NCBI GenBank assembly: GCA_000146045.2
Contig: BK006941.2
Location: 704,001-768,000, forward strand
DNA: 64,000 nt
From: TPA_inf: Saccharomyces
Lineage: Eukaryota
Direction of reading: 5' to 3'
Part shown: one piece after another, positions 2,940-64,000 of the stretch
How positions within the stretch are numbered: position 1 is the stretch's first letter
Layout of the letters: every line of letters starts with the position of its first letter
Position numbers and translations under genes: made by a program
The notes under the pieces: model-generated
What the model saw: only the letters and a program-made list of their open reading frames with translations
Databases searched by the model: none
What the model was told of the DNA's origin: nothing

Positions 2940-3107
2940 CCATTGTCTATACGGTAATATAGGGCTTTCTTCATTACCTGCTTGCGTCAATTAGCTTTAC
3001 TCATGTAACACATAATAACCTCTTACATTGTAATGAGGCCCAAAAAAAAAAAAAGAACATCTTCAAAAAAAAAAAACTTTCATGGAAGGACCACCTAGTT
3101 AATAAAA

Positions 3108-3179
3108 AGCTCGCACTCAGGATCGAACTAAGGACCAACAGATTTGCAATCTGCTGCGCTACCACTGCGCCATACGAGC
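3108..3179 (-). tRNA. tC(GCA)G: tRNA-Cys (anticodon GCA), 72 nt, no intron
   Basis: The reverse complement reads GCTCGTATGGCGCAGTGGTAGCGCAGCAGATTGCAAATCTGTTGGTCCTTAGTTCGATCCTGAGTGCGAGCT. Cloverleaf elements and the internal A box (TGGCGCAGTGG) and B box (GTTCGATCC) are recognisable. A T5 run follows the 3' end on the minus strand and would act as the Pol III terminator. Confidence 0.9.
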
Positions 3180-3189
3180 TTGATTTTCT

Positions 3190-22616: not shown

Positions 22617-22973
22617 ATTTTTAAATATAAAAAGTAAACTTCATTTTGAAAGACCACTCTGCATCAGCACGCGGGCTCTGGAAGGAAGAAATGACGTTTC
22701 GGCGGAATACCCTTTCAGAAGGTCTGCTCTTGTGGCTGGTTCATGGGAGACACCCAGCGGAGCTCCTCCCGAGAAAGGCCCCTTCATCTCTGCCGATTGC
22801 TGACGGAAAGCAGTAGCGGAGGTTTGAGTTCTCTACGCCGAGAGTACACTGCCGTAATATCACAATGTTTCGACTAACGGTTACAGTACGTTAAATTAGA
22901 TACTGCCTATGAATTGACATATTAGATAATGTCAAATTTTACAAAAACCTAAGACAACAGGAAATAAACAAAG

Positions 22974-27126: not shown

Positions 27127-27200
27127 TAGTCAAAAAGACTCCATGGCCAAGTTGGTTAAGGCGTGCGACTGTTAATCGCAAGATCGTGAGTTCAACCCTC
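27127..27200 (+). tRNA. tN(GUU)G: tRNA-Asn (anticodon GUU), 74 nt
   Basis: GACTCCATGGCCAAGTTGGTTAAGGCGTGCGACTGTTAATCGCAAGATCGTGAGTTCAACCCTCACTGGGGTCG. An A box and a B box (GTTCAACCC) are present, and a T6 terminator follows. Confidence 0.9.
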
Positions 27201-27448
27201 ACTGGGGTCGTTTTTTGCTTGAAATGAGCAACATTGGAGGAAGATTTGTGAAATCCTCCAGTTTTCTTTTTTTCCTCTAGGTTTTAACGAATGTGATAAA
27301 AGATAACTAAATAGGAGGGTCATTAAAATGCTAGGTAACGTATAAACAATGCACATCTATACATATATGAAGGTTTGAATAAGGAATAAATAACACGTGC
27401 TCATAAAAAATCAAGAGAGCCAAGCTGGAAACAAAATCAATAAACCGT

Positions 27449-32339: not shown

Positions 32340-32411
32340 GCTCGCGTGGCGTAATGGCAACGCGTCTGACTTCTAATCAGAAGATTATGGGTTCGACCCC
32401 CATCGTGAGTG
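32340..32411 (+). tRNA. tR(UCU)G2: tRNA-Arg (anticodon UCU), 72 nt
   Basis: GCTCGCGTGGCGTAATGGCAACGCGTCTGACTTCTAATCAGAAGATTATGGGTTCGACCCCCATCGTGAGTG. A box and B box (GGTTCGACCCC) are present, and a T7 terminator follows. The G2 suffix is recalled from memory. Confidence 0.9.
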
Positions 32412-35121: not shown

Positions 35122-35195
35122 GGTCTCTTGGCCCAGTTGGTTAAGGCACCGTGCTAATAACGCGGGGATCAGCGGTTCGATCCCGCTAGAGACCA
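35122..35195 (+). tRNA. tI(AAU)G: tRNA-Ile (anticodon AAU), 74 nt
   Basis: GGTCTCTTGGCCCAGTTGGTTAAGGCACCGTGCTAATAACGCGGGGATCAGCGGTTCGATCCCGCTAGAGACCA. A box and B box (GGTTCGATCC) are present, with a T5 run shortly downstream. Confidence 0.9.
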
Positions 35196-59761: not shown

Positions 59762-61606
59762 TTACATCTCAACACTGTCGATGGAATAGTCCTTCTTGGA
59801 CAACTTATGTCTCAAGCCCTTACCCCAGTAAGAAAATGCAAAAGGTAAAGCAATCATAGCAGTGGAGATGAAAGCCAACAACCAAGAACCCCAGTGCAAA
59901 TTCAATTTGTGGTACATTTGAATGGTAAACAAGGGGAAGGCAGCACCACCGGCGGATCTTAAGAAAACCTTTGTAGCCAGAGCACTGGATGCGTATTGGA
60001 CGTAGCAATCAATAATGTAATTATTCAATGAATAATAAATCAACACCATACCGAAACCAAAAGCTAAACCAGCTGAAGCTGGACCAACCCAAATAATATG
60101 TTTATAAGCGGTAGCACCCAGGATCCATAGAGCAATTGCAGCAAATGGAGCACCGATCTTAGCACCTAGCAAACGATCTTCAGGAGTAGGTTTACGCTGT
60201 TTGACAATTTGTAAATATTTGTTTTCACAGTAGAAAGTTGTGGCTAACGCCCAAAGAGCACCGATAACAATAGGAATAAACATTAAACCCACAAGGTTAT
60301 CTTTGTAGCCATATAGTTCACCGAAAATGACAGGGAAGGCAAAGAAGAACGCATATAGTAGAGAGTAAATCAAACACACGTAGAAACAAGTGGCAACTAG
60401 AACAGGTTCAGTGACAGCGAAGTACAAAGGTCTCAACAGACAAGCCCTCATCATTTCACTCATACTGACACCTTGCGCTTCCTGCTCAGTCATAATCTTG
60501 GGATTACCAGTTTCCTTTCTTAATCTAGCAGCCTTTCTCTTCAAGATAACTGGAGCGTACGTTTCTGGGATGGCAGAAGATATGATCCACATAACACCTG
60601 CAAAGGCCATATTGACCCAGAAAATCAGGTCCATACGTCCGGTAGAAACGGAAATAAAACCGTTAACTAGTGGACCAACAACGGGACCAACGTAAGGAGC
60701 AAAAGCGAAGAAAGCAATAGCCTTACCTCTTGTTTCACTTGGGAACATATCGGCAATAGACCCACCAACTAAACACAAACCAGATGATGACCAAACACCA
60801 CATAAAAATCTACAAGCTAAAAGACAACCTAGATTTGGAGCTAAGGCGCAAGGGATATTGAAGATGACATAAAGACCCATAGAAACAAAGTAAGCAACTC
60901 TTCTACCGTAAAGATCACTAACAGGAGACCAAATCAAAGGACCCAGCGAGAACCCAATAACCATTAAAGAACATGATAAAATAGCGGCTTCCATACCTAC
61001 ATGGTATTTCTTTTCAACGGTTCCCAACCCACCACTGATACAAGCAGAACCGTAGGCAACGCAAATAACTAAGATGGACAACAGGACAGTGTAACTCCAA
61101 CGAACCCATGAGGGCCAATTGTGAGGGTTTTCTGGATCACCAGTAACAAAAGTAACGAATTCGATCTCTGGATCTAGCTCGTTTTCACCGCTCTGGTCTT
61201 CACGTTCTTCAGTTTCTTCCTCTTCCATTTCTTCTTTACCTGTGGATGAGGAATTGGTAGCGGTACGGTTCAATTGCTTTGTTCTAGTACGAGATAAGGC
61301 AGAGGCGGTTCTACCCATAGATTGTAAGGTAGCCACTGGAACCAGCCCAGATGGTGTTTCCATGGTATATTCTTCAGGGAAAATGTTATTCTTAGCAGTT
61401 TGTGGCGCATTGATATCAGGCACTGGGGCGGCTGAAGTGACACCTAAATCTTGTAAAGACTTGACGGTCTCAGTCTTAGTTAACTTAAGTTGATTTGCAC
61501 GAGAGTTGGTTTTTGAGGGGACATACTGTTGAGGTTGTTGGCCCTCAACGTCCACCATGGAAGTGTTTTGTGAGTTGAATGAAACAACAGATTCTTGATC
61601 ACTCAT
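59762..61606 (-). CDS. TPO2: MFS (DHA1) polyamine/drug:H+ antiporter, 614 aa
   Basis: Complete ATG ORF with 12 transmembrane segments and MFS motifs. The hydrophilic N-terminus begins MSDQESVVSF.. Confidence 0.85.
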   Translation of the reverse strand: MSDQESVVSFNSQNTSMVDVEGQQPQQYVPSKTNSRANQLKLTKTETVKSLQDLGVTSAAPVPDINAPQTAKNNIFPEEYTMETPSGLVPVATLQSMGRTASALSRTRTKQLNRTATNSSSTGKEEMEEEETEEREDQSGENELDPEIEFVTFVTGDPENPHNWPSWVRWSYTVLLSILVICVAYGSACISGGLGTVEKKYHVGMEAAILSCSLMVIGFSLGPLIWSPVSDLYGRRVAYFVSMGLYVIFNIPCALAPNLGCLLACRFLCGVWSSSGLCLVGGSIADMFPSETRGKAIAFFAFAPYVGPVVGPLVNGFISVSTGRMDLIFWVNMAFAGVMWIISSAIPETYAPVILKRKAARLRKETGNPKIMTEQEAQGVSMSEMMRACLLRPLYFAVTEPVLVATCFYVCLIYSLLYAFFFAFPVIFGELYGYKDNLVGLMFIPIVIGALWALATTFYCENKYLQIVKQRKPTPEDRLLGAKIGAPFAAIALWILGATAYKHIIWVGPASAGLAFGFGMVLIYYSLNNYIIDCYVQYASSALATKVFLRSAGGAAFPLFTIQMYHKLNLHWGSWLLAFISTAMIALPFAFSYWGKGLRHKLSKKDYSIDSVEM

Positions 61607-63428
61607 ATTTGTTTTGTGTATTATTTTTGTGATTAGTTATTAGATGGAATTAAAGGAAAAATATCAATGGACAAAAAATATTAGGGTGTAGAAATAAAGA
61701 ATAATAGCAGGGCTTTGATAAAAGAATGTATCAATTACTTTTTGAAATTAAAGTTAAAATTAAAATTCAAACCGAAAAAAAAAAAAAATTAAATATTAAA
61801 CTTGATATAGTAGGAGAAGGAAGTTGTATATTGTTCTCTATAAACACAAACAATAAAATGATATATTTGTTTTCTTATTTCTTCTTGATGTCTTCAGGAA
61901 AAAAGAACATAAACAAATACAAAAAAATCCTAGTACGAAACCTCAAAAGGGTGTATGCGCAATGTATATATATAGCAAGAAAAAAAAATAAACAGTGGCA
62001 TTACAGTGCATGCGGATGGCAGTGTTCTTCGGTGGCTTTTTCGAAAAACCTAGAATGCGTTTAAAAGACTCAGACACCTAAGCAGAATATGCGAATGACT
62101 CGTTCAGTAAAATGCGACGCGACAGTTTGTTTTCGTTCTGCGCTGCTGTGTTCTCTATTCTTTTGAGATGAATTTAACGGCTATGGAATCATCTCGAGAA
62201 ATCGGTTCTAGTAAGGCACCAAGACATTATGTCCCTCGGGAGGAGAAGGGCGCACGCGTCAGGCTTCCACGACGTCCGCCGTGCATGCGCTCTCGCATTT
62301 TTAAGGTTTAGTGCGGCAGGCGACTGCGCTGCGGCCAGCCCGTGAGACCACCCGAGGGAATTTGAGTAAGCGCGCCCATTGCGGGGTTTTTGCGGTTTGC
62401 GCTGTTTTCCGCACGAGGTTTCTCCGGACACAGTTAAGCAGTATATTTCACTCGGAAGCGCCGGAAAATTTTTTTAAGCGCAAATATATTCAGGTAAGCA
62501 GCAAAAAAATACTTTTTCCGGTGGCCCGTGATGTGTTTGTAACAGCTTCTGCGGTACTTTGGGCGGCTAAATGGCAAATAGATCAGGGGAAGGGTTTTTG
62601 CATAGGTACAAAATAACCGGATTTTGGGTAAGATTCGATCTTCGGCACTTGTGGCGAAGTAAAAGTGTTGAAAAAGTTCGCGTAATAATAGTGTTAGCCG
62701 TTTCAGCTTCGTCCATAAAGTACATATCCACAACTCTCATGGTGCGAAGTACAAACATTGAACGGCAGCTGTCTTGCTCAGCTAGTGGTATGTAAGCAGC
62801 CGCATTCTATTTTTATTTTCGTGCCTTTAAGTGTTAAAACCTGAGGCAGATTTTTTATTTTTTTGCATTCCCCTTCCTTTTTGCCGTAATGGCGCATTCA
62901 GTGCTGATATATTTATACTTCAATGGTGCTTCTCCTTACTTTTCTTATAGAAATAAACATCAAAACATGAACCTCAAATTCATCCGAAAATGACTGCGGC
63001 CACTCACCTTGCTTCTTCCCCACAAATATTTGTGTTCTCTGCTTTCTTTGTGTGTACTTTGTCTTGCTCTATATAACTTTCTCTCTGCTGCTGAGTCTTC
63101 AAATAGGTAGATTGATGCCTGTGGACTTTTATACAAAGGAGTTTGAGTGATTACATTCAAGATAAACGTGAAAAGTTATTATTATATCTTATGCTAAACA
63201 ACAGTGTAATTGCGTTTGTTAAGCACAATCTCAAAATAATGCGCTAACAGTGGTGCGCATACTGCCATTTGTTATGGGCTATAATCGGATAGTGTATTCT
63301 TCTTGTTTGGTTATGTATCTCAACATCCAGGTATCCGTTACCCCACTTTGATACCAGGAACCTTTCGCGTTTTCTCTCGCTTTTATTTTTTTACCGCATA
63401 CAAACAAACAAGAAAAAGTAGAAAACAT

Positions 63429-64000
63429 ATGAGATCATCGATTTTGTTTCTACTAAAATTGATGAAAATTATGGATGTTCAGCAACAGCAAGAAGCTATG
63501 TCATCAGAAGATAGGTTTCAGGAACTGGTGGACTCCCTAAAGCCAAGAACTGCGCATCAGTACAAGACCTACTATACTAAGTACATACAATGGTGTCAGC
63601 TCAATCAAATTATACCGACACCGGAGGACAATTCTGTAAATAGCGTCCCCTATAAAGACCTGCCAATATCTGCTGAACTGATACATTGGTTTTTGTTAGA
63701 TACATTAATAACCGATGATAAGCCTGGAGAGAAAAGAGAAGAGACTGAAGATCTTGATGAGGAGGAGGAGAATTCATTCAAGATCGCTACGTTGAAGAAA
63801 ATTATAGGCAGTCTCAATTTTTTGTCAAAATTGTGCAAAGTTCATGAAAATCCAAATGCTAATATAGACACAAAATACCTGGAGTCAGTCACCAAGCTTC
63901 ATACCCATTGGATAGATTCACAAAAGGCAATCACCACTAATGAAACAAATAACACAAATACTCAAGTGCTGTGTCCACCATTATTGAAAGTGTCTTTGAA
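63429..64000 (+). CDS. CBF2: Kinetochore CBF3 complex subunit Ndc10, N-terminal ~190 aa; continues beyond the window
   Basis: The ATG at 63429 is followed by [57 protein letters not shown].., open to the window edge. It is not in the ORF track because no stop falls within the window. Confidence 0.8.

What the first reader, a model, noticed from the sequence alone, without database searches (positions are those of the whole stretch)
62190..62800. GC-rich ~600-bp island in the long TPO2-CBF2 intergenic region
Typical yeast intergenic DNA here is about 30-35% GC. This block is by eye above 50% GC, with runs such as GGCGCACGCGTCAGGCTTCCACGACGTCCGCCGTGCATGCGCTCTCGC and CGGCAGGCGACTGCGCTGCGGCCAGCCCGTGAGACCACCCGAGGG. 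It is open in several frames on both strands; the ORF track shows five overlapping 63-101-aa ORFs with no convincing protein character. It also contains an inverted repeat CCGGAAAA (62461-62468) ... TTTTCCGG (62514-62521). In yeast, a stop-poor GC-rich stretch of this kind is more typical of structured non-coding RNA genes or a conserved cis-element than of promoter DNA. I cannot match it from memory to a named RNA.
Basis: seen in the sequence. Interest (0 to 1): 0.5.

Follow-up and report, generated by a model that had tools for sequence, protein, structure and literature searches.

The report
Conserved GC-rich TPO2 upstream control region
The GC-rich block is the distal control region of the yeast weak-acid/polyamine exporter gene TPO2, where the acid-stress activator Haa1 is known to bind; it is real and very well conserved, but there is no sign that it is an RNA gene.

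Summary
The compositional anomaly is real but smaller than described. The interval 62190-62800 is 48.9% GC. The true peak is 62231-62430, at 62.5% GC with 24 CpG, the highest 200-nt window in the 64 kb.

In seven Saccharomyces species, 62057-62460 (plus a weaker block at 62555-62660) has 54-64% invariant sites. That is coding-level conservation, but it shows no codon periodicity, has frame-breaking indels, and none of the five ORFs is preserved.

The evidence argues against an RNA gene:
- No Rfam hit, tRNA, Pol III box or snoRNA C box.
- No excess folding stability on the + strand.
- No covariation: 1 compensatory pair out of 76.

The island lies 450-1050 bp upstream of the TPO2 ATG and 90-700 bp upstream of its conserved TATA box. 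The published Haa1 ChIP primers for "the TPO2 promoter" map inside it (62356-62455). They bracket an invariant Haa1-type site, GCGGGG.

The paralog TPO3 has its mapped acetic-acid response element in a GC-rich block at the same distance from its ATG.

Verdict: this is a known kind of element, an upstream activating/regulatory module, at a known Haa1 target. Its unusual length, its constraint and several unassigned invariant motifs remain unexplained. Interest is low to moderate.

The parts
62057..62460 (.). Main conserved block (distal UAS/URS of TPO2), -451 to -854 from the TPO2 ATG
   Evidence: In the seven-species alignment, 50-70% of sites are invariant per 50 nt, and 0.54-0.64 per 100 nt against a CDS mean of 0.65 and 0.05-0.5 for other intergenic DNA. 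Variable sites show no 3-nt periodicity: 60/53/52.
62231..62430 (.). GC/CpG peak (core of the 'island')
   Evidence: 62.5% GC and 24 CpG, top-ranked of all 200-nt windows in the 64 kb. The orthologous segment is 54-62% GC in all 7 species.
62356..62455 (.). Span of the published Haa1-13Myc ChIP-qPCR primers for 'the TPO2 promoter' (Kim et al. 2018, PMC6379682)
   Evidence: The primer sequences come from the paper's supplement. They match uniquely at 62356-62381 and 62426-62455. The paper reports acetic-acid-inducible Haa1 binding there.
62381..62386 (+). GCGGGG, a match to the minimal Haa1-responsive element (G/C)(A/C)GG(G/C)G, preceded by ATT
   Evidence: Invariant in 7/7 species and part of the invariant run TGCGGGGTTTTT at 62380-62391. 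The HRE definition and the GCGGGG-type affinity (GGCGCGGGG, KD 13.6 nM) are from Mira et al. 2011.
62232..62239 (-). TCCCTCGG, first copy of the conserved word CCGAGGGA (inverted orientation)
   Evidence: Lies largely within the invariant run TATGTCCCTC at 62228-62237. It forms an 8-9 nt inverted pair with 62352-62359, 120 nt away. The binding factor is unknown. GAGGGA is a weak Haa1 variant in vitro.
62349..62362 (+). CACCCGAGGGAATT, a 14-nt invariant run holding the second copy of CCGAGGGA
62140..62145 (+). GCGCTG, copy 1 of three direct conserved copies
   Evidence: TGCGCTG occurs at 62139 and 62398, and GCGCTGC at 62140 and 62326, each with at least 6 of 7 positions invariant.
62326..62331 (+). 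GCGCTG, copy 2
62396..62405 (+). TTTGCGCTGT (GCGCTG copy 3), which fits the Ace1/Cup2-type copper-fist consensus HTHNNGCTGD and lies inside the Haa1 ChIP span
   Evidence: Conserved in 5/6 other species. The consensus is recalled from my own knowledge, not tested.
62249..62259 (.). GGCGCACGCGT: the invariant run GGCGCACGC plus the palindrome ACGCGT (MluI/MCB-like)
   Evidence: The invariant run is 62249-62257. ACGCGT is kept in 5/6 species. Assignment to MBF is inference only.
62094..62107 (+). AATGACTCGTTCAG, a 14-nt invariant run with a TGACTC core (Gcn4/Bas1-type)
   Evidence: The factor assignment is from general knowledge, not tested.
62168..62182 (.). ATGAATTTAACGGCT, a 15-nt invariant run flanked by the GATGA/TCATC dyad
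   Evidence: The factor is unknown.
62555..62660 (.). Second, weaker conserved block, containing GGCGGCTA (URS1/Ume6-type, 62562-62569) and AACCGGATTTTG (62615-62626)
   Evidence: Both runs are invariant, and 0.46-0.52 of sites are invariant per 50 nt. TPO2 is up log2 2.88 in ume6-delta, but it is not among the 144 direct Ume6 targets.
61965..61974 (-). TATATATATA, the conserved TATA element of TPO2 (-360)
   Evidence: Kept in 5-6 of 6 species. It places the island 90-700 bp upstream of the core promoter.
59762..61606 (-). TPO2 (YGR138C) coding sequence, the gene controlled
   Evidence: A 614-aa ORF, 100% identical to S. cerevisiae Tpo2p.
62461..62521 (.). Present, but judged not to be part of a functional unit.
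   Evidence: The arms are conserved in 4/6 and 1/6 species, and the count is within chance.

Best explanation
The island is the distal upstream regulatory module (UAS, probably with URS elements) of TPO2, the divergently placed MFS weak-acid/polyamine exporter gene.

**Proposed mechanism**
- The module sits 90-700 bp upstream of the TPO2 TATA box, which is itself about 360 bp from the ATG.
- On weak-acid stress the copper-fist-type activator Haa1 binds inside the island. The most likely site is the invariant ATT-GCGGGG at 62381-62386. The neighbouring GCGCTG and CCGAGGGA words may contribute.
- Haa1 then drives the strong (about 19-fold) Haa1-dependent induction of TPO2.
- The other invariant runs and dyads are most simply read as tightly packed sites for further DNA-binding proteins. 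These runs are TGACTC, GACGCGA, ATGAATTTAACGGCT, AAGGCACCA, GGCGCACGCGT, CATGCGC, CACCCGAGGGAATT, GTTTCTCC, TCACTCGGAA, GGCGGCTA and AACCGGATTTTG.
- Together they integrate other signals, for example potassium starvation, nutrient or cell-cycle state, and repression.

**Why it is GC-rich**
Its recognition words are GC-rich. In addition, an unexplained compositional constraint keeps even the variable positions at about 61-63% GC.

**Shown versus inferred**
- Shown: the composition; purifying selection on primary sequence without coding or RNA-structure signatures; the position relative to TPO2; the mapping of the published Haa1 ChIP amplicon; a parallel architecture at TPO3 and at the K. naganishii ortholog.
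- Inferred: which base pairs Haa1 contacts; the identity of the other factors; that the island is necessary and sufficient for induction.
For: **Position**
- The island lies -451 to -1050 from the TPO2 ATG, upstream of a conserved TATA at -360.
- The CBF2-proximal half of the intergenic region is almost unconserved.

**Direct link to Haa1**
- The ChIP primers of Kim et al. 2018 for the TPO2 promoter map uniquely to 62356-62381 and 62426-62455.
- That paper reports acetic-acid-inducible Haa1 occupancy and near-complete Haa1 dependence of TPO2 induction.
- The same paper's second amplicon brackets the experimentally defined TPO3 HRE. The authors therefore appear to centre their amplicons on HREs.
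- Mira et al. 2011 report that Haa1 binds the TPO2 promoter in vivo, and that activation is 18.7-fold.

**Motif**
- GCGGGG fits the minimal HRE. It is invariant in 7/7 species and preceded by A/T, as in 77% of HREs.

**Paralog and ortholog parallels**
- The TPO3 acetic-acid responsive element was mapped to -790..-590. In the TPO3 locus that interval is the GC peak (57-58%) and holds GGCGAGGGG at -676.
- The K. naganishii TPO2 ortholog has a 62% GC peak at -695..-595, with CCCCTC at -631 and a TATA at -366.

**Functional hint**
- A 510-bp TPO2 promoter fragment (61607-62116) that lacks the island gave only 1.3-fold induction. The mRNA rose 4.6-fold.

**Sequence-level constraint typical of protein-binding DNA**
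- Invariant runs of 7-15 nt, dyads with invariant arms, and no covariation.
Against: - No experiment cited here deletes or transplants the TPO2 island itself. ChIP-qPCR resolution is a few hundred bp, so Haa1 contact with GCGGGG specifically is inferred.
- Minimal HRE matches are not enriched: 4 in 1.8 kb for a degenerate hexamer.
- The high-affinity GAGGGG that Mira et al. ascribe to the TPO2 promoter is absent from this intergenic sequence.
- 400-600 bp of near-continuous, coding-level conservation is far more than one Haa1 site needs, and is unusual for yeast promoters. Most invariant runs have no assigned factor.
- Variable positions are as GC-rich as invariant ones, which a pure 'sum of binding sites' model does not predict.
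- Transcription across the island was not examined.
Confidence: 0.8

Rival explanations
1. The island is an independent structured non-coding RNA gene (snoRNA-like, Pol III or other stable RNA), and its conservation reflects RNA structure.
For: - GC-rich, stop-poor and conserved at coding level.
- RNAalifold windows at 62110-62310 score z = -2.2 to -3.7 against column shuffles.
- The - strand folds slightly better than shuffles: z = -1.97, with 7 of 100 shuffles as good.
Against: - No Rfam family matches, even at E<=10, inside the island.
- No tRNA, and no A/B boxes or C box.
- The + strand folding z-score is -0.07.
- The alifold signal is equal on both strands. It comes from short palindromes whose arms are invariant, and variation breaks pairs more often than it compensates.
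- The covariation term is positive.
- Only 1 of 76 pairs is compensatory, and the covariation score equals the shuffled mean.
- The region is absent from the text and held supplements of the Kavanaugh & Dietrich ncRNA screen.
- Power is limited, because the alignment is 84% identical.
Confidence: 0.04
2. The island is, in whole or part, the promoter or leader of a regulatory upstream transcript (a CUT/SUT, or a 5'-extended LUTI-type isoform). That transcript reads towards TPO2 or CBF2 and controls the gene by transcriptional interference. The conserved URS1-type site would drive it in meiosis.
For: - An invariant URS1-type GGCGGCTA lies at 62562-62569, on the distal side of the island.
- TPO2 is strongly up in ume6-delta, at log2FC 2.88.
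- The 1.8-kb intergenic region is long, as at loci that have such transcripts.
- This reading can coexist with the UAS explanation.
Against: - Neither TPO2 nor CBF2 appears in the held supplements of the LUTI catalogue of Tresenrider et al. 2021.
- TPO2 is listed only among the ume6-delta 'additional DEGs' that the authors consider largely indirect. It is not among the 144 direct targets or the Ume6-regulated LUTIs.
- No literature hit connects TPO2 with non-coding transcription.
- A transcribed spacer would not need coding-level primary-sequence conservation.
Confidence: 0.1
3. The island encodes an unannotated small protein from one of the 63-101-aa ORFs.
For: Five ORFs of 63-101 aa are present. 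The level of conservation equals that of neighbouring genes.
Against: - Variable sites fall 60/53/52 over the three phases, against 427/33/71 in TPO2.
- Indels are not multiples of three.
- Every ORF is interrupted by stops or frameshifts in at least four of the six other species. Three of the five start at non-ATG codons.
Confidence: 0.01
4. The GC peak is a neutral by-product of GC-biased gene conversion at a promoter-associated meiotic recombination hotspot, or another mutational bias, with no sequence-specific function.
For: Variable columns in the island are as GC-rich (61-63%) as invariant ones (53%). This is what a regional bias would produce.
Against: - A bias does not create conservation. 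The island has 3-10 times more invariant sites than neighbouring intergenic DNA.
- The GC peak is shared by all seven species.
- Haa1 occupancy has been measured there.
- A bias could still contribute to the composition on top of function.
Confidence: 0.04

Closest known systems
ACRE (acetic-acid responsive element) of the paralog TPO3, with its Haa1-responsive element GGCGAGGGG (Mira et al. 2011, PMC3167633)
   Same: - Same gene family: TPO2 and TPO3 are 89% identical paralogs.
- Same distance from the ATG: the ACRE is at -790..-590, and the TPO2 GC core is at -625..-824.
- Both are the local GC peak of a long promoter.
- Both contain a minimal HRE and are occupied by Haa1 in vivo.
   Different: - There is no alignable sequence similarity between the two upstream regions.
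- The TPO2 site is the lower-affinity GCGGGG type, not GAGGGG.
- The TPO2 block is longer and richer in GC and CpG.
- The TPO2 island itself has not been shown to be sufficient on a heterologous promoter.
Long, multi-input yeast promoters with distal UAS/URS clusters (for example HO URS1/URS2, FLO11, IME1). This comparison is from general knowledge.
   Same: - The regulatory DNA lies many hundreds of bp from the ATG.
- Many distinct conserved protein-binding words are present.
- The gene is TATA-containing and highly inducible.
   Different: Those promoters have been dissected experimentally. Here only Haa1 is documented, and the density of invariant sites (about 60% over 400 bp) seems unusually high.
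Structured ncRNA genes (Rfam families; the RUF RNAs of Kavanaugh & Dietrich 2009)
   Same: A GC-rich, stop-poor, conserved intergenic segment, which is the profile that such screens look for.
   Different: No family match, no covariation, a strand-symmetric folding signal from palindromes, and no Pol III or snoRNA boxes.
Vertebrate CpG islands
   Same: It meets the usual compositional criteria: more than 200 bp, GC above 50%, and CpG observed/expected of 1.24. It also lies at a promoter.
   Different: S. cerevisiae has no cytosine DNA methylation (general knowledge). CpG depletion therefore does not shape the background, and the mechanism that defines CpG islands does not apply. The resemblance is superficial.

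Membership tests
Haa1-dependent upstream activating element (ACRE/HRE type) | Contains the minimal Haa1-responsive element 5'-(G/C)(A/C)GG(G/C)G-3' | tested here: met
   GCGGGG at 62381-62386 is invariant in 7/7 species. CAGGGG at 62584, CAGGCG at 62317 and CGCCGG at 62459 are partly conserved. By count alone this is not above chance for a degenerate hexamer.
Haa1-dependent upstream activating element (ACRE/HRE type) | Haa1 occupies the element in vivo | tested here: met
   This rests on the literature plus mapping done here. The published Haa1-13Myc ChIP primers map to 62356-62381 and 62426-62455, and binding is acetic-acid-inducible. Resolution is that of ChIP-qPCR.
Haa1-dependent upstream activating element (ACRE/HRE type) | Lies upstream of a gene whose weak-acid induction requires Haa1 | tested here: met
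   The island is -451..-1050 from the TPO2 ATG. TPO2 induction is 18.7-fold Haa1-dependent and is abolished in haa1-delta.
Haa1-dependent upstream activating element (ACRE/HRE type) | Confers Haa1- and acid-dependent expression on a heterologous minimal promoter, and loses this when the HRE is mutated | not testable with these tools
   This was done for TPO3 but not for TPO2. The only indirect hint is that a 510-bp fragment lacking the island responds poorly to potassium starvation.
Structured non-coding RNA gene | Match to a curated RNA family, or a tRNA | tested here: not met
   The Rfam E-value scan of 61500-63500 gave six chance-level hits, all with E>1 and none inside 62190-62800. The gathering-threshold scan of the whole window found only four tRNAs elsewhere. 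ARAGORN found none here.
Structured non-coding RNA gene | Base pairs supported by compensatory substitutions | tested here: not met
   1 of 76 pairs has a double change. The covariation score of 0.078 equals the shuffled mean, and 341 of 500 shuffles reach it. The covariation energy terms are +3.48 and +0.91 kcal/mol. Power is limited by the 84% identity of the alignment.
Structured non-coding RNA gene | Thermodynamic stability beyond composition, on one strand | tested here: inconclusive
   Single-sequence z-scores are -0.07 (+) and -1.97 (-). Alignment windows at 62110-62310 score z -2.2 to -3.7, but equally on both strands, as expected of DNA palindromes.
Structured non-coding RNA gene | A discrete transcript with defined ends | not testable with these tools
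   No expression data are available. Literature and supplement searches found nothing for this locus.
Structured non-coding RNA gene | Pol III A/B boxes or snoRNA C/D boxes | tested here: not met
   No A box, B box (even relaxed) or C box occurs in 62000-62800. H/ACA boxes were not scanned separately; the Rfam scan, which holds H/ACA families, found none inside the island.
Protein-coding gene | An ORF preserved in orthologs, with third-position bias of substitutions | tested here: not met
   All five ORFs are broken in at least 4 of 6 species. The phase distribution is 60/53/52, against 427/33/71 for TPO2.
Replication origin (ARS) | Match to the 11-bp ARS consensus WTTTAYRTTTW | tested here: not met
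   No match, even to the 9-bp core, in 62000-62800.
Ume6/URS1-controlled element | URS1 core GGCGGCTA present and the gene directly Ume6-responsive | tested here: inconclusive
   The motif is invariant at 62562-62569. TPO2 is up log2 2.88 in ume6-delta, but it is absent from the 144 direct targets defined by acute depletion plus ChIP.

The most novel reading that the evidence does not exclude
The island is more than a Haa1 site. It would be a roughly 450-600-bp 'enhanceosome-like' module under coding-level constraint, with fixed order and spacing of its parts.

Those parts include an inverted pair of CCGAGGGA words 120 bp apart, three direct GCGCTG words, and several 12-15-nt invariant runs with no known factor. 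Together they would be read by one or more uncharacterised DNA-binding proteins. A maintained GC composition, perhaps setting nucleosome occupancy, would itself be part of the function.

A less likely variant is that the sequence also acts as RNA within an upstream-initiated transcript.
Probability: 0.2. Interest if true: 0.45.

Novelty: already known. Interest (0 to 1): 0.25.

Why it matters
As it stands, the result mainly removes a false lead. The most GC- and CpG-rich spot in this 64-kb stretch of yeast chromosome is not a hidden RNA gene. It is the distal control region of TPO2, a gene that matters for tolerance of acetic acid and other weak acids in industrial fermentation.

The result also gives practical guidance:
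- Reporter constructs of 500 bp miss this region.
- The likely Haa1 contact, GCGGGG at -775, can now be mutated precisely, as can about ten other invariant words.

Most of the 400 bp of coding-level constraint is not explained by any documented factor. For this reason the locus could serve as a compact test case for how dense, order-constrained regulatory DNA works in yeast.

Tried and rejected
**Tests of the RNA-gene reading, all negative**
1. The Rfam scan at E<=10 gave only chance hits, all outside the island.
2. tRNA and tmRNA scans found none.
3. Several structure tests gave no RNA support: my own RNAalifold with column-shuffle z-scores, tool RNAalifold on both strands, and pair counting with controls. 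The signal comes only from strand-symmetric palindromes, with no covariation.
4. There are no Pol III boxes, C box or ARS consensus.

**Other sequence tests**
5. The coding test by ORF conservation and periodicity was negative.
6. BLASTN of the TPO2 against the TPO3 upstream region showed no real similarity. An nhmmer profile of the island found no hit in the upstream regions of S. cerevisiae TPO3, N. castellii, K. naganishii or T. delbrueckii. Primary-sequence conservation is therefore confined to Saccharomyces.

**Literature and supplement searches**
7. Searches for YGR139W, for TPO2+CBF2 intergenic, for iYGR138C, for TPO2 with non-coding-transcription terms, and for TPO2 with Ume6/Mbp1/Nrg1/Xbp1/Gcn4 returned nothing specific to this region.
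8. Coordinate searches of two ncRNA papers' supplements found nothing in one and only numeric noise in the other.
9. The LUTI catalogue supplements list neither TPO2 nor CBF2.
10. The Ume6 idea stayed ambiguous: TPO2 is derepressed in ume6-delta but is not a called direct target.

12. Assignments of MCB, Gcn4/Bas1, Nrg1, Xbp1, Rgt1 and Ace1-type motifs come from consensus strings recalled from memory and scanned. They are leads only.
13. The sigma-70 promoter/terminator scanner was not used, because it does not apply to yeast.
Full report
**Where this is**

The ORF at 59762-61606 (-) is 100% identical to S. cerevisiae Tpo2p. The ORF starting at 63429 (+) is CBF2/NDC10: the orthologous neighbour carries Ndc10 domains. 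The dubious ORF YGR139W corresponds to 61726-62064.

**Check of the observation**

The quoted runs, the CCGGAAAA/TTTTCCGG coordinates and the five 63-101-aa ORFs are all exactly as described. The composition claim needs trimming:
- The interval 62190-62800 is 48.9% GC, not above 50%.
- The real peak is 62231-62430, at 62.5% GC with 24 CpG.
- That peak ranks first among all 200-nt windows of the 64 kb on both measures. The window means are 38.1% GC (sd 5.2) and 5.8 CpG (sd 2.7).
- GC exceeds 50% only between about 62100 and 62500.

The 8-nt inverted repeat is neither conserved (arms kept in 4/6 and 1/6 species) nor beyond chance.

**Comparative evidence**

I retrieved the syntenic CBF2-TPO2 loci of S. 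paradoxus, S. mikatae, S. kudriavzevii, S. arboricola, S. eubayanus and S. uvarum and aligned the intergenic regions.
- The CBF2-proximal half (62700-63350) is almost unalignable, with 0-20% invariant sites per 50 nt.
- In 62057-62460, 50-70% of sites are invariant. A second block at 62555-62660 has about 46-52%.
- In a 7-species alignment of the whole 8-10 kb loci, the island scores 0.54-0.64 invariant sites per 100 nt. Coding sequence averages 0.65 +/- 0.11, and the other intergenic windows score 0.05-0.5.

The constraint is therefore at coding level, yet the block does not code:
- Variable sites are spread 60/53/52 over the three phases, against 427/33/71 in TPO2.
- Indels are not multiples of three.
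- Every one of the five ORFs is interrupted in at least four of the six other species.

**Is it an RNA gene?**

Nothing supports this reading.
- Rfam at E<=10 finds only chance hits, all outside the island. The only RNA genes in the window are four tRNAs elsewhere.
- There are no Pol III A/B boxes, no C box and no ARS consensus.
- The S. cerevisiae sequence folds no better than dinucleotide shuffles on the + strand (z = -0.07). It is marginal on the - strand (z = -1.97).
- My sliding RNAalifold test against column-shuffled alignments gave z = -2.2 to -3.7 only for 62110-62310, and equally on both strands.
- The pair table shows why. The 'helices' are short palindromes and inverted repeats whose arms are invariant, and the changes that do occur break pairs more often than they compensate.
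- Tool RNAalifold gives unfavourable covariation terms, +3.48 and +0.91 kcal/mol.
- Pair counting finds one compensatory pair in 76, and a covariation score equal to the shuffled mean.
- Power is limited by the 84% identity of the alignment. Even so, the pattern (primary-sequence invariance, strand symmetry) is that of protein-binding DNA.

**What it is**

The island lies 451-1050 bp upstream of the TPO2 ATG and 90-700 bp upstream of a conserved TATATATA at -360. That is where a yeast UAS is expected.

The literature ties it to Haa1.
- Kim et al. 2018 (PMC6379682) measured acetic-acid-inducible Haa1-13Myc binding to 'the TPO2 promoter'.
- The two ChIP primers in their supplement match uniquely at 62356-62381 and 62426-62455, inside the GC core.
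- Both primers are printed on the same strand. The same is true of that paper's TDA6/TPO3 pair, which brackets the experimentally defined TPO3 HRE. I therefore take the span between the primers as the amplicon.
- The span contains GCGGGG (62381-62386). This is a match to the minimal Haa1-responsive element (G/C)(A/C)GG(G/C)G. It is invariant in all seven species and preceded by ATT.
- Mira et al. 2011 (PMC3167633) measured KD 13.6 nM for the GCGGGG-type site. They also state that Haa1 binds the TPO2 promoter in vivo and activates it 18.7-fold.

The paralog and an ortholog show the same layout.
- The TPO3 acetic-acid responsive element was mapped to -790..-590.
- In the TPO3 locus I fetched, that interval is the GC peak of the promoter (57-58%) and holds GGCGAGGGG at -676.
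- The K. naganishii TPO2 ortholog has a 62% GC peak at -695..-595, with CCCCTC at -631 and a TATA at -366.
- The architecture is thus shared, although the sequences are not alignable. BLASTN and an nhmmer profile found nothing.

One functional hint points the same way. A 510-bp TPO2 promoter fragment, which ends at 62116 and so lacks the island, gave only 1.3-fold induction on potassium starvation. The mRNA rose 4.6-fold.

**Anatomy beyond Haa1**

Invariant runs of 7 nt or more include:
- AATGACTCGTTCAG (62094)
- GACGCGA (62116)
- ATGAATTTAACGGCT (62168)
- AAGGCACCA (62213)
- TATGTCCCTC (62228)
- GGCGCACGC (62249, continuing into ACGCGT)
- CATGCGC (62284)
- CACCCGAGGGAATT (62349)
- TGCGGGGTTTTT (62380)
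- GTTTGCG (62395)
- GTTTCTCC (62418)
- TCACTCGGAA (62448)
- GGCGGCTA (62562)
- AACCGGATTTTG (62615)

Two kinds of word recur. CCGAGGGA occurs as an inverted pair 120 nt apart (62232-62239 and 62352-62359). GCGCTG occurs three times in direct orientation (62140, 62326, 62399).

Some of these runs resemble consensus sites I know from the literature: Gcn4/Bas1 TGACTC, MCB ACGCGT, URS1 GGCGGCTA, Nrg1 CCCTC, and Ace1-type HTHNNGCTGD. These assignments are leads, not tests.

For URS1 the evidence is ambiguous. TPO2 is up log2 2.88 in ume6-delta. However, it is listed among the DEGs the authors regard as largely indirect, not among the 144 direct targets. Neither TPO2 nor CBF2 appears in the LUTI catalogue supplements.

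**What remains unexplained**
- One Haa1 site does not need 400-600 bp of coding-level constraint.
- The GC richness is shared by all seven species (54-62% in the core). It is as strong at variable columns (61-63%) as at invariant ones (53%). Composition itself therefore seems to be maintained, or driven by a bias such as GC-biased gene conversion.
- Mira et al. state that GAGGGG occurs in the TPO2 promoter. This sequence has none in the intergenic region. The nearest copy lies inside the coding sequence at 61515-61520.

**Verdict**

The element is the distal regulatory module of TPO2, a documented direct Haa1 target. It is the positional counterpart of the mapped TPO3 ACRE. I rate it as already known in kind and in instance.

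Interest is low to moderate (0.25). The density of constraint and the unassigned invariant words leave a modest chance (about 0.2) that an uncharacterised, architecture-dependent regulatory assembly sits here. Transcript mapping and a deletion/transplant series would settle the question.

Noticed in passing
window 61826-61855: GTATATTGTTCTCTATAA.CACAAACAATA is the longest seven-species-invariant stretch of the whole intergenic region (18 + 11 nt). It lies between the TPO2 TATA box (-360) and the ATG, so it is probably a TSS or 5'-leader element of TPO2.
   Followed up: no
window 63363-63370: TTTCGCGT (SCB/MCB-like) lies about 60 nt upstream of the CBF2 ATG and is conserved in 5 of 6 other species. 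It is almost the only conserved word in the CBF2-proximal kilobase.
   Followed up: no
window 22651-22850: This is the second-highest GC 200-nt window of the 64 kb, at 56%. It also shows raised CpG: 14 in 22691-22890. It was not examined.
   Followed up: no
window 62356-62455; L007 2256-2354: In the supplement of Kim et al. 2018, both primers of the TPO2 ChIP pair are printed on the same strand. The same holds for the TDA6 pair. As printed they could not amplify, so this is presumably a table convention or an error.
   Followed up: partly
window 61607-63429 and 61515-61520: Mira et al. 2011 state that the highest-affinity Haa1 site, GAGGGG, is in the TPO2 promoter. This sequence has none on either strand of the intergenic region. 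The nearest copy is inside the TPO2 coding sequence.
   Followed up: partly
L003 (S. kudriavzevii), aligned to window about 62176-62183: S. kudriavzevii carries an 8-nt tandem duplication (ACGGCTAT) inside the otherwise invariant ATGAATTTAACGGCT block.
   Followed up: no
window 62190-62470: Variable alignment columns are more GC-rich (61-63%) than invariant ones (53%). This suggests a maintained composition, or GC-biased fixation, on top of motif conservation.
   Followed up: partly
window 61726-62064 (YGR139W): The dubious ORF YGR139W overlaps the TPO2 TATA box and leader on the opposite strand. The region carries large A/T-tract expansions and non-3 indels in S. arboricola, S. eubayanus and S. 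uvarum. This is consistent with the ORF being spurious.
   Followed up: partly
L009 2506-3500 (K. naganishii); L007 1526-3000 (S. cerevisiae TPO3): Both have a GC peak about 600-800 bp upstream of the ATG with a GAGGGG-type site, and K. naganishii has a TATA near -366. The layout is the same as at TPO2, without alignable sequence.
   Followed up: yes
window 3107-3180, 27137-27210, 32340-32411, 35122-35195: Four tRNA genes (Cys-GCA, Asn-GTT, Arg-TCT, Ile-AAT) are the only Rfam-level RNA genes in the window.
   Followed up: no
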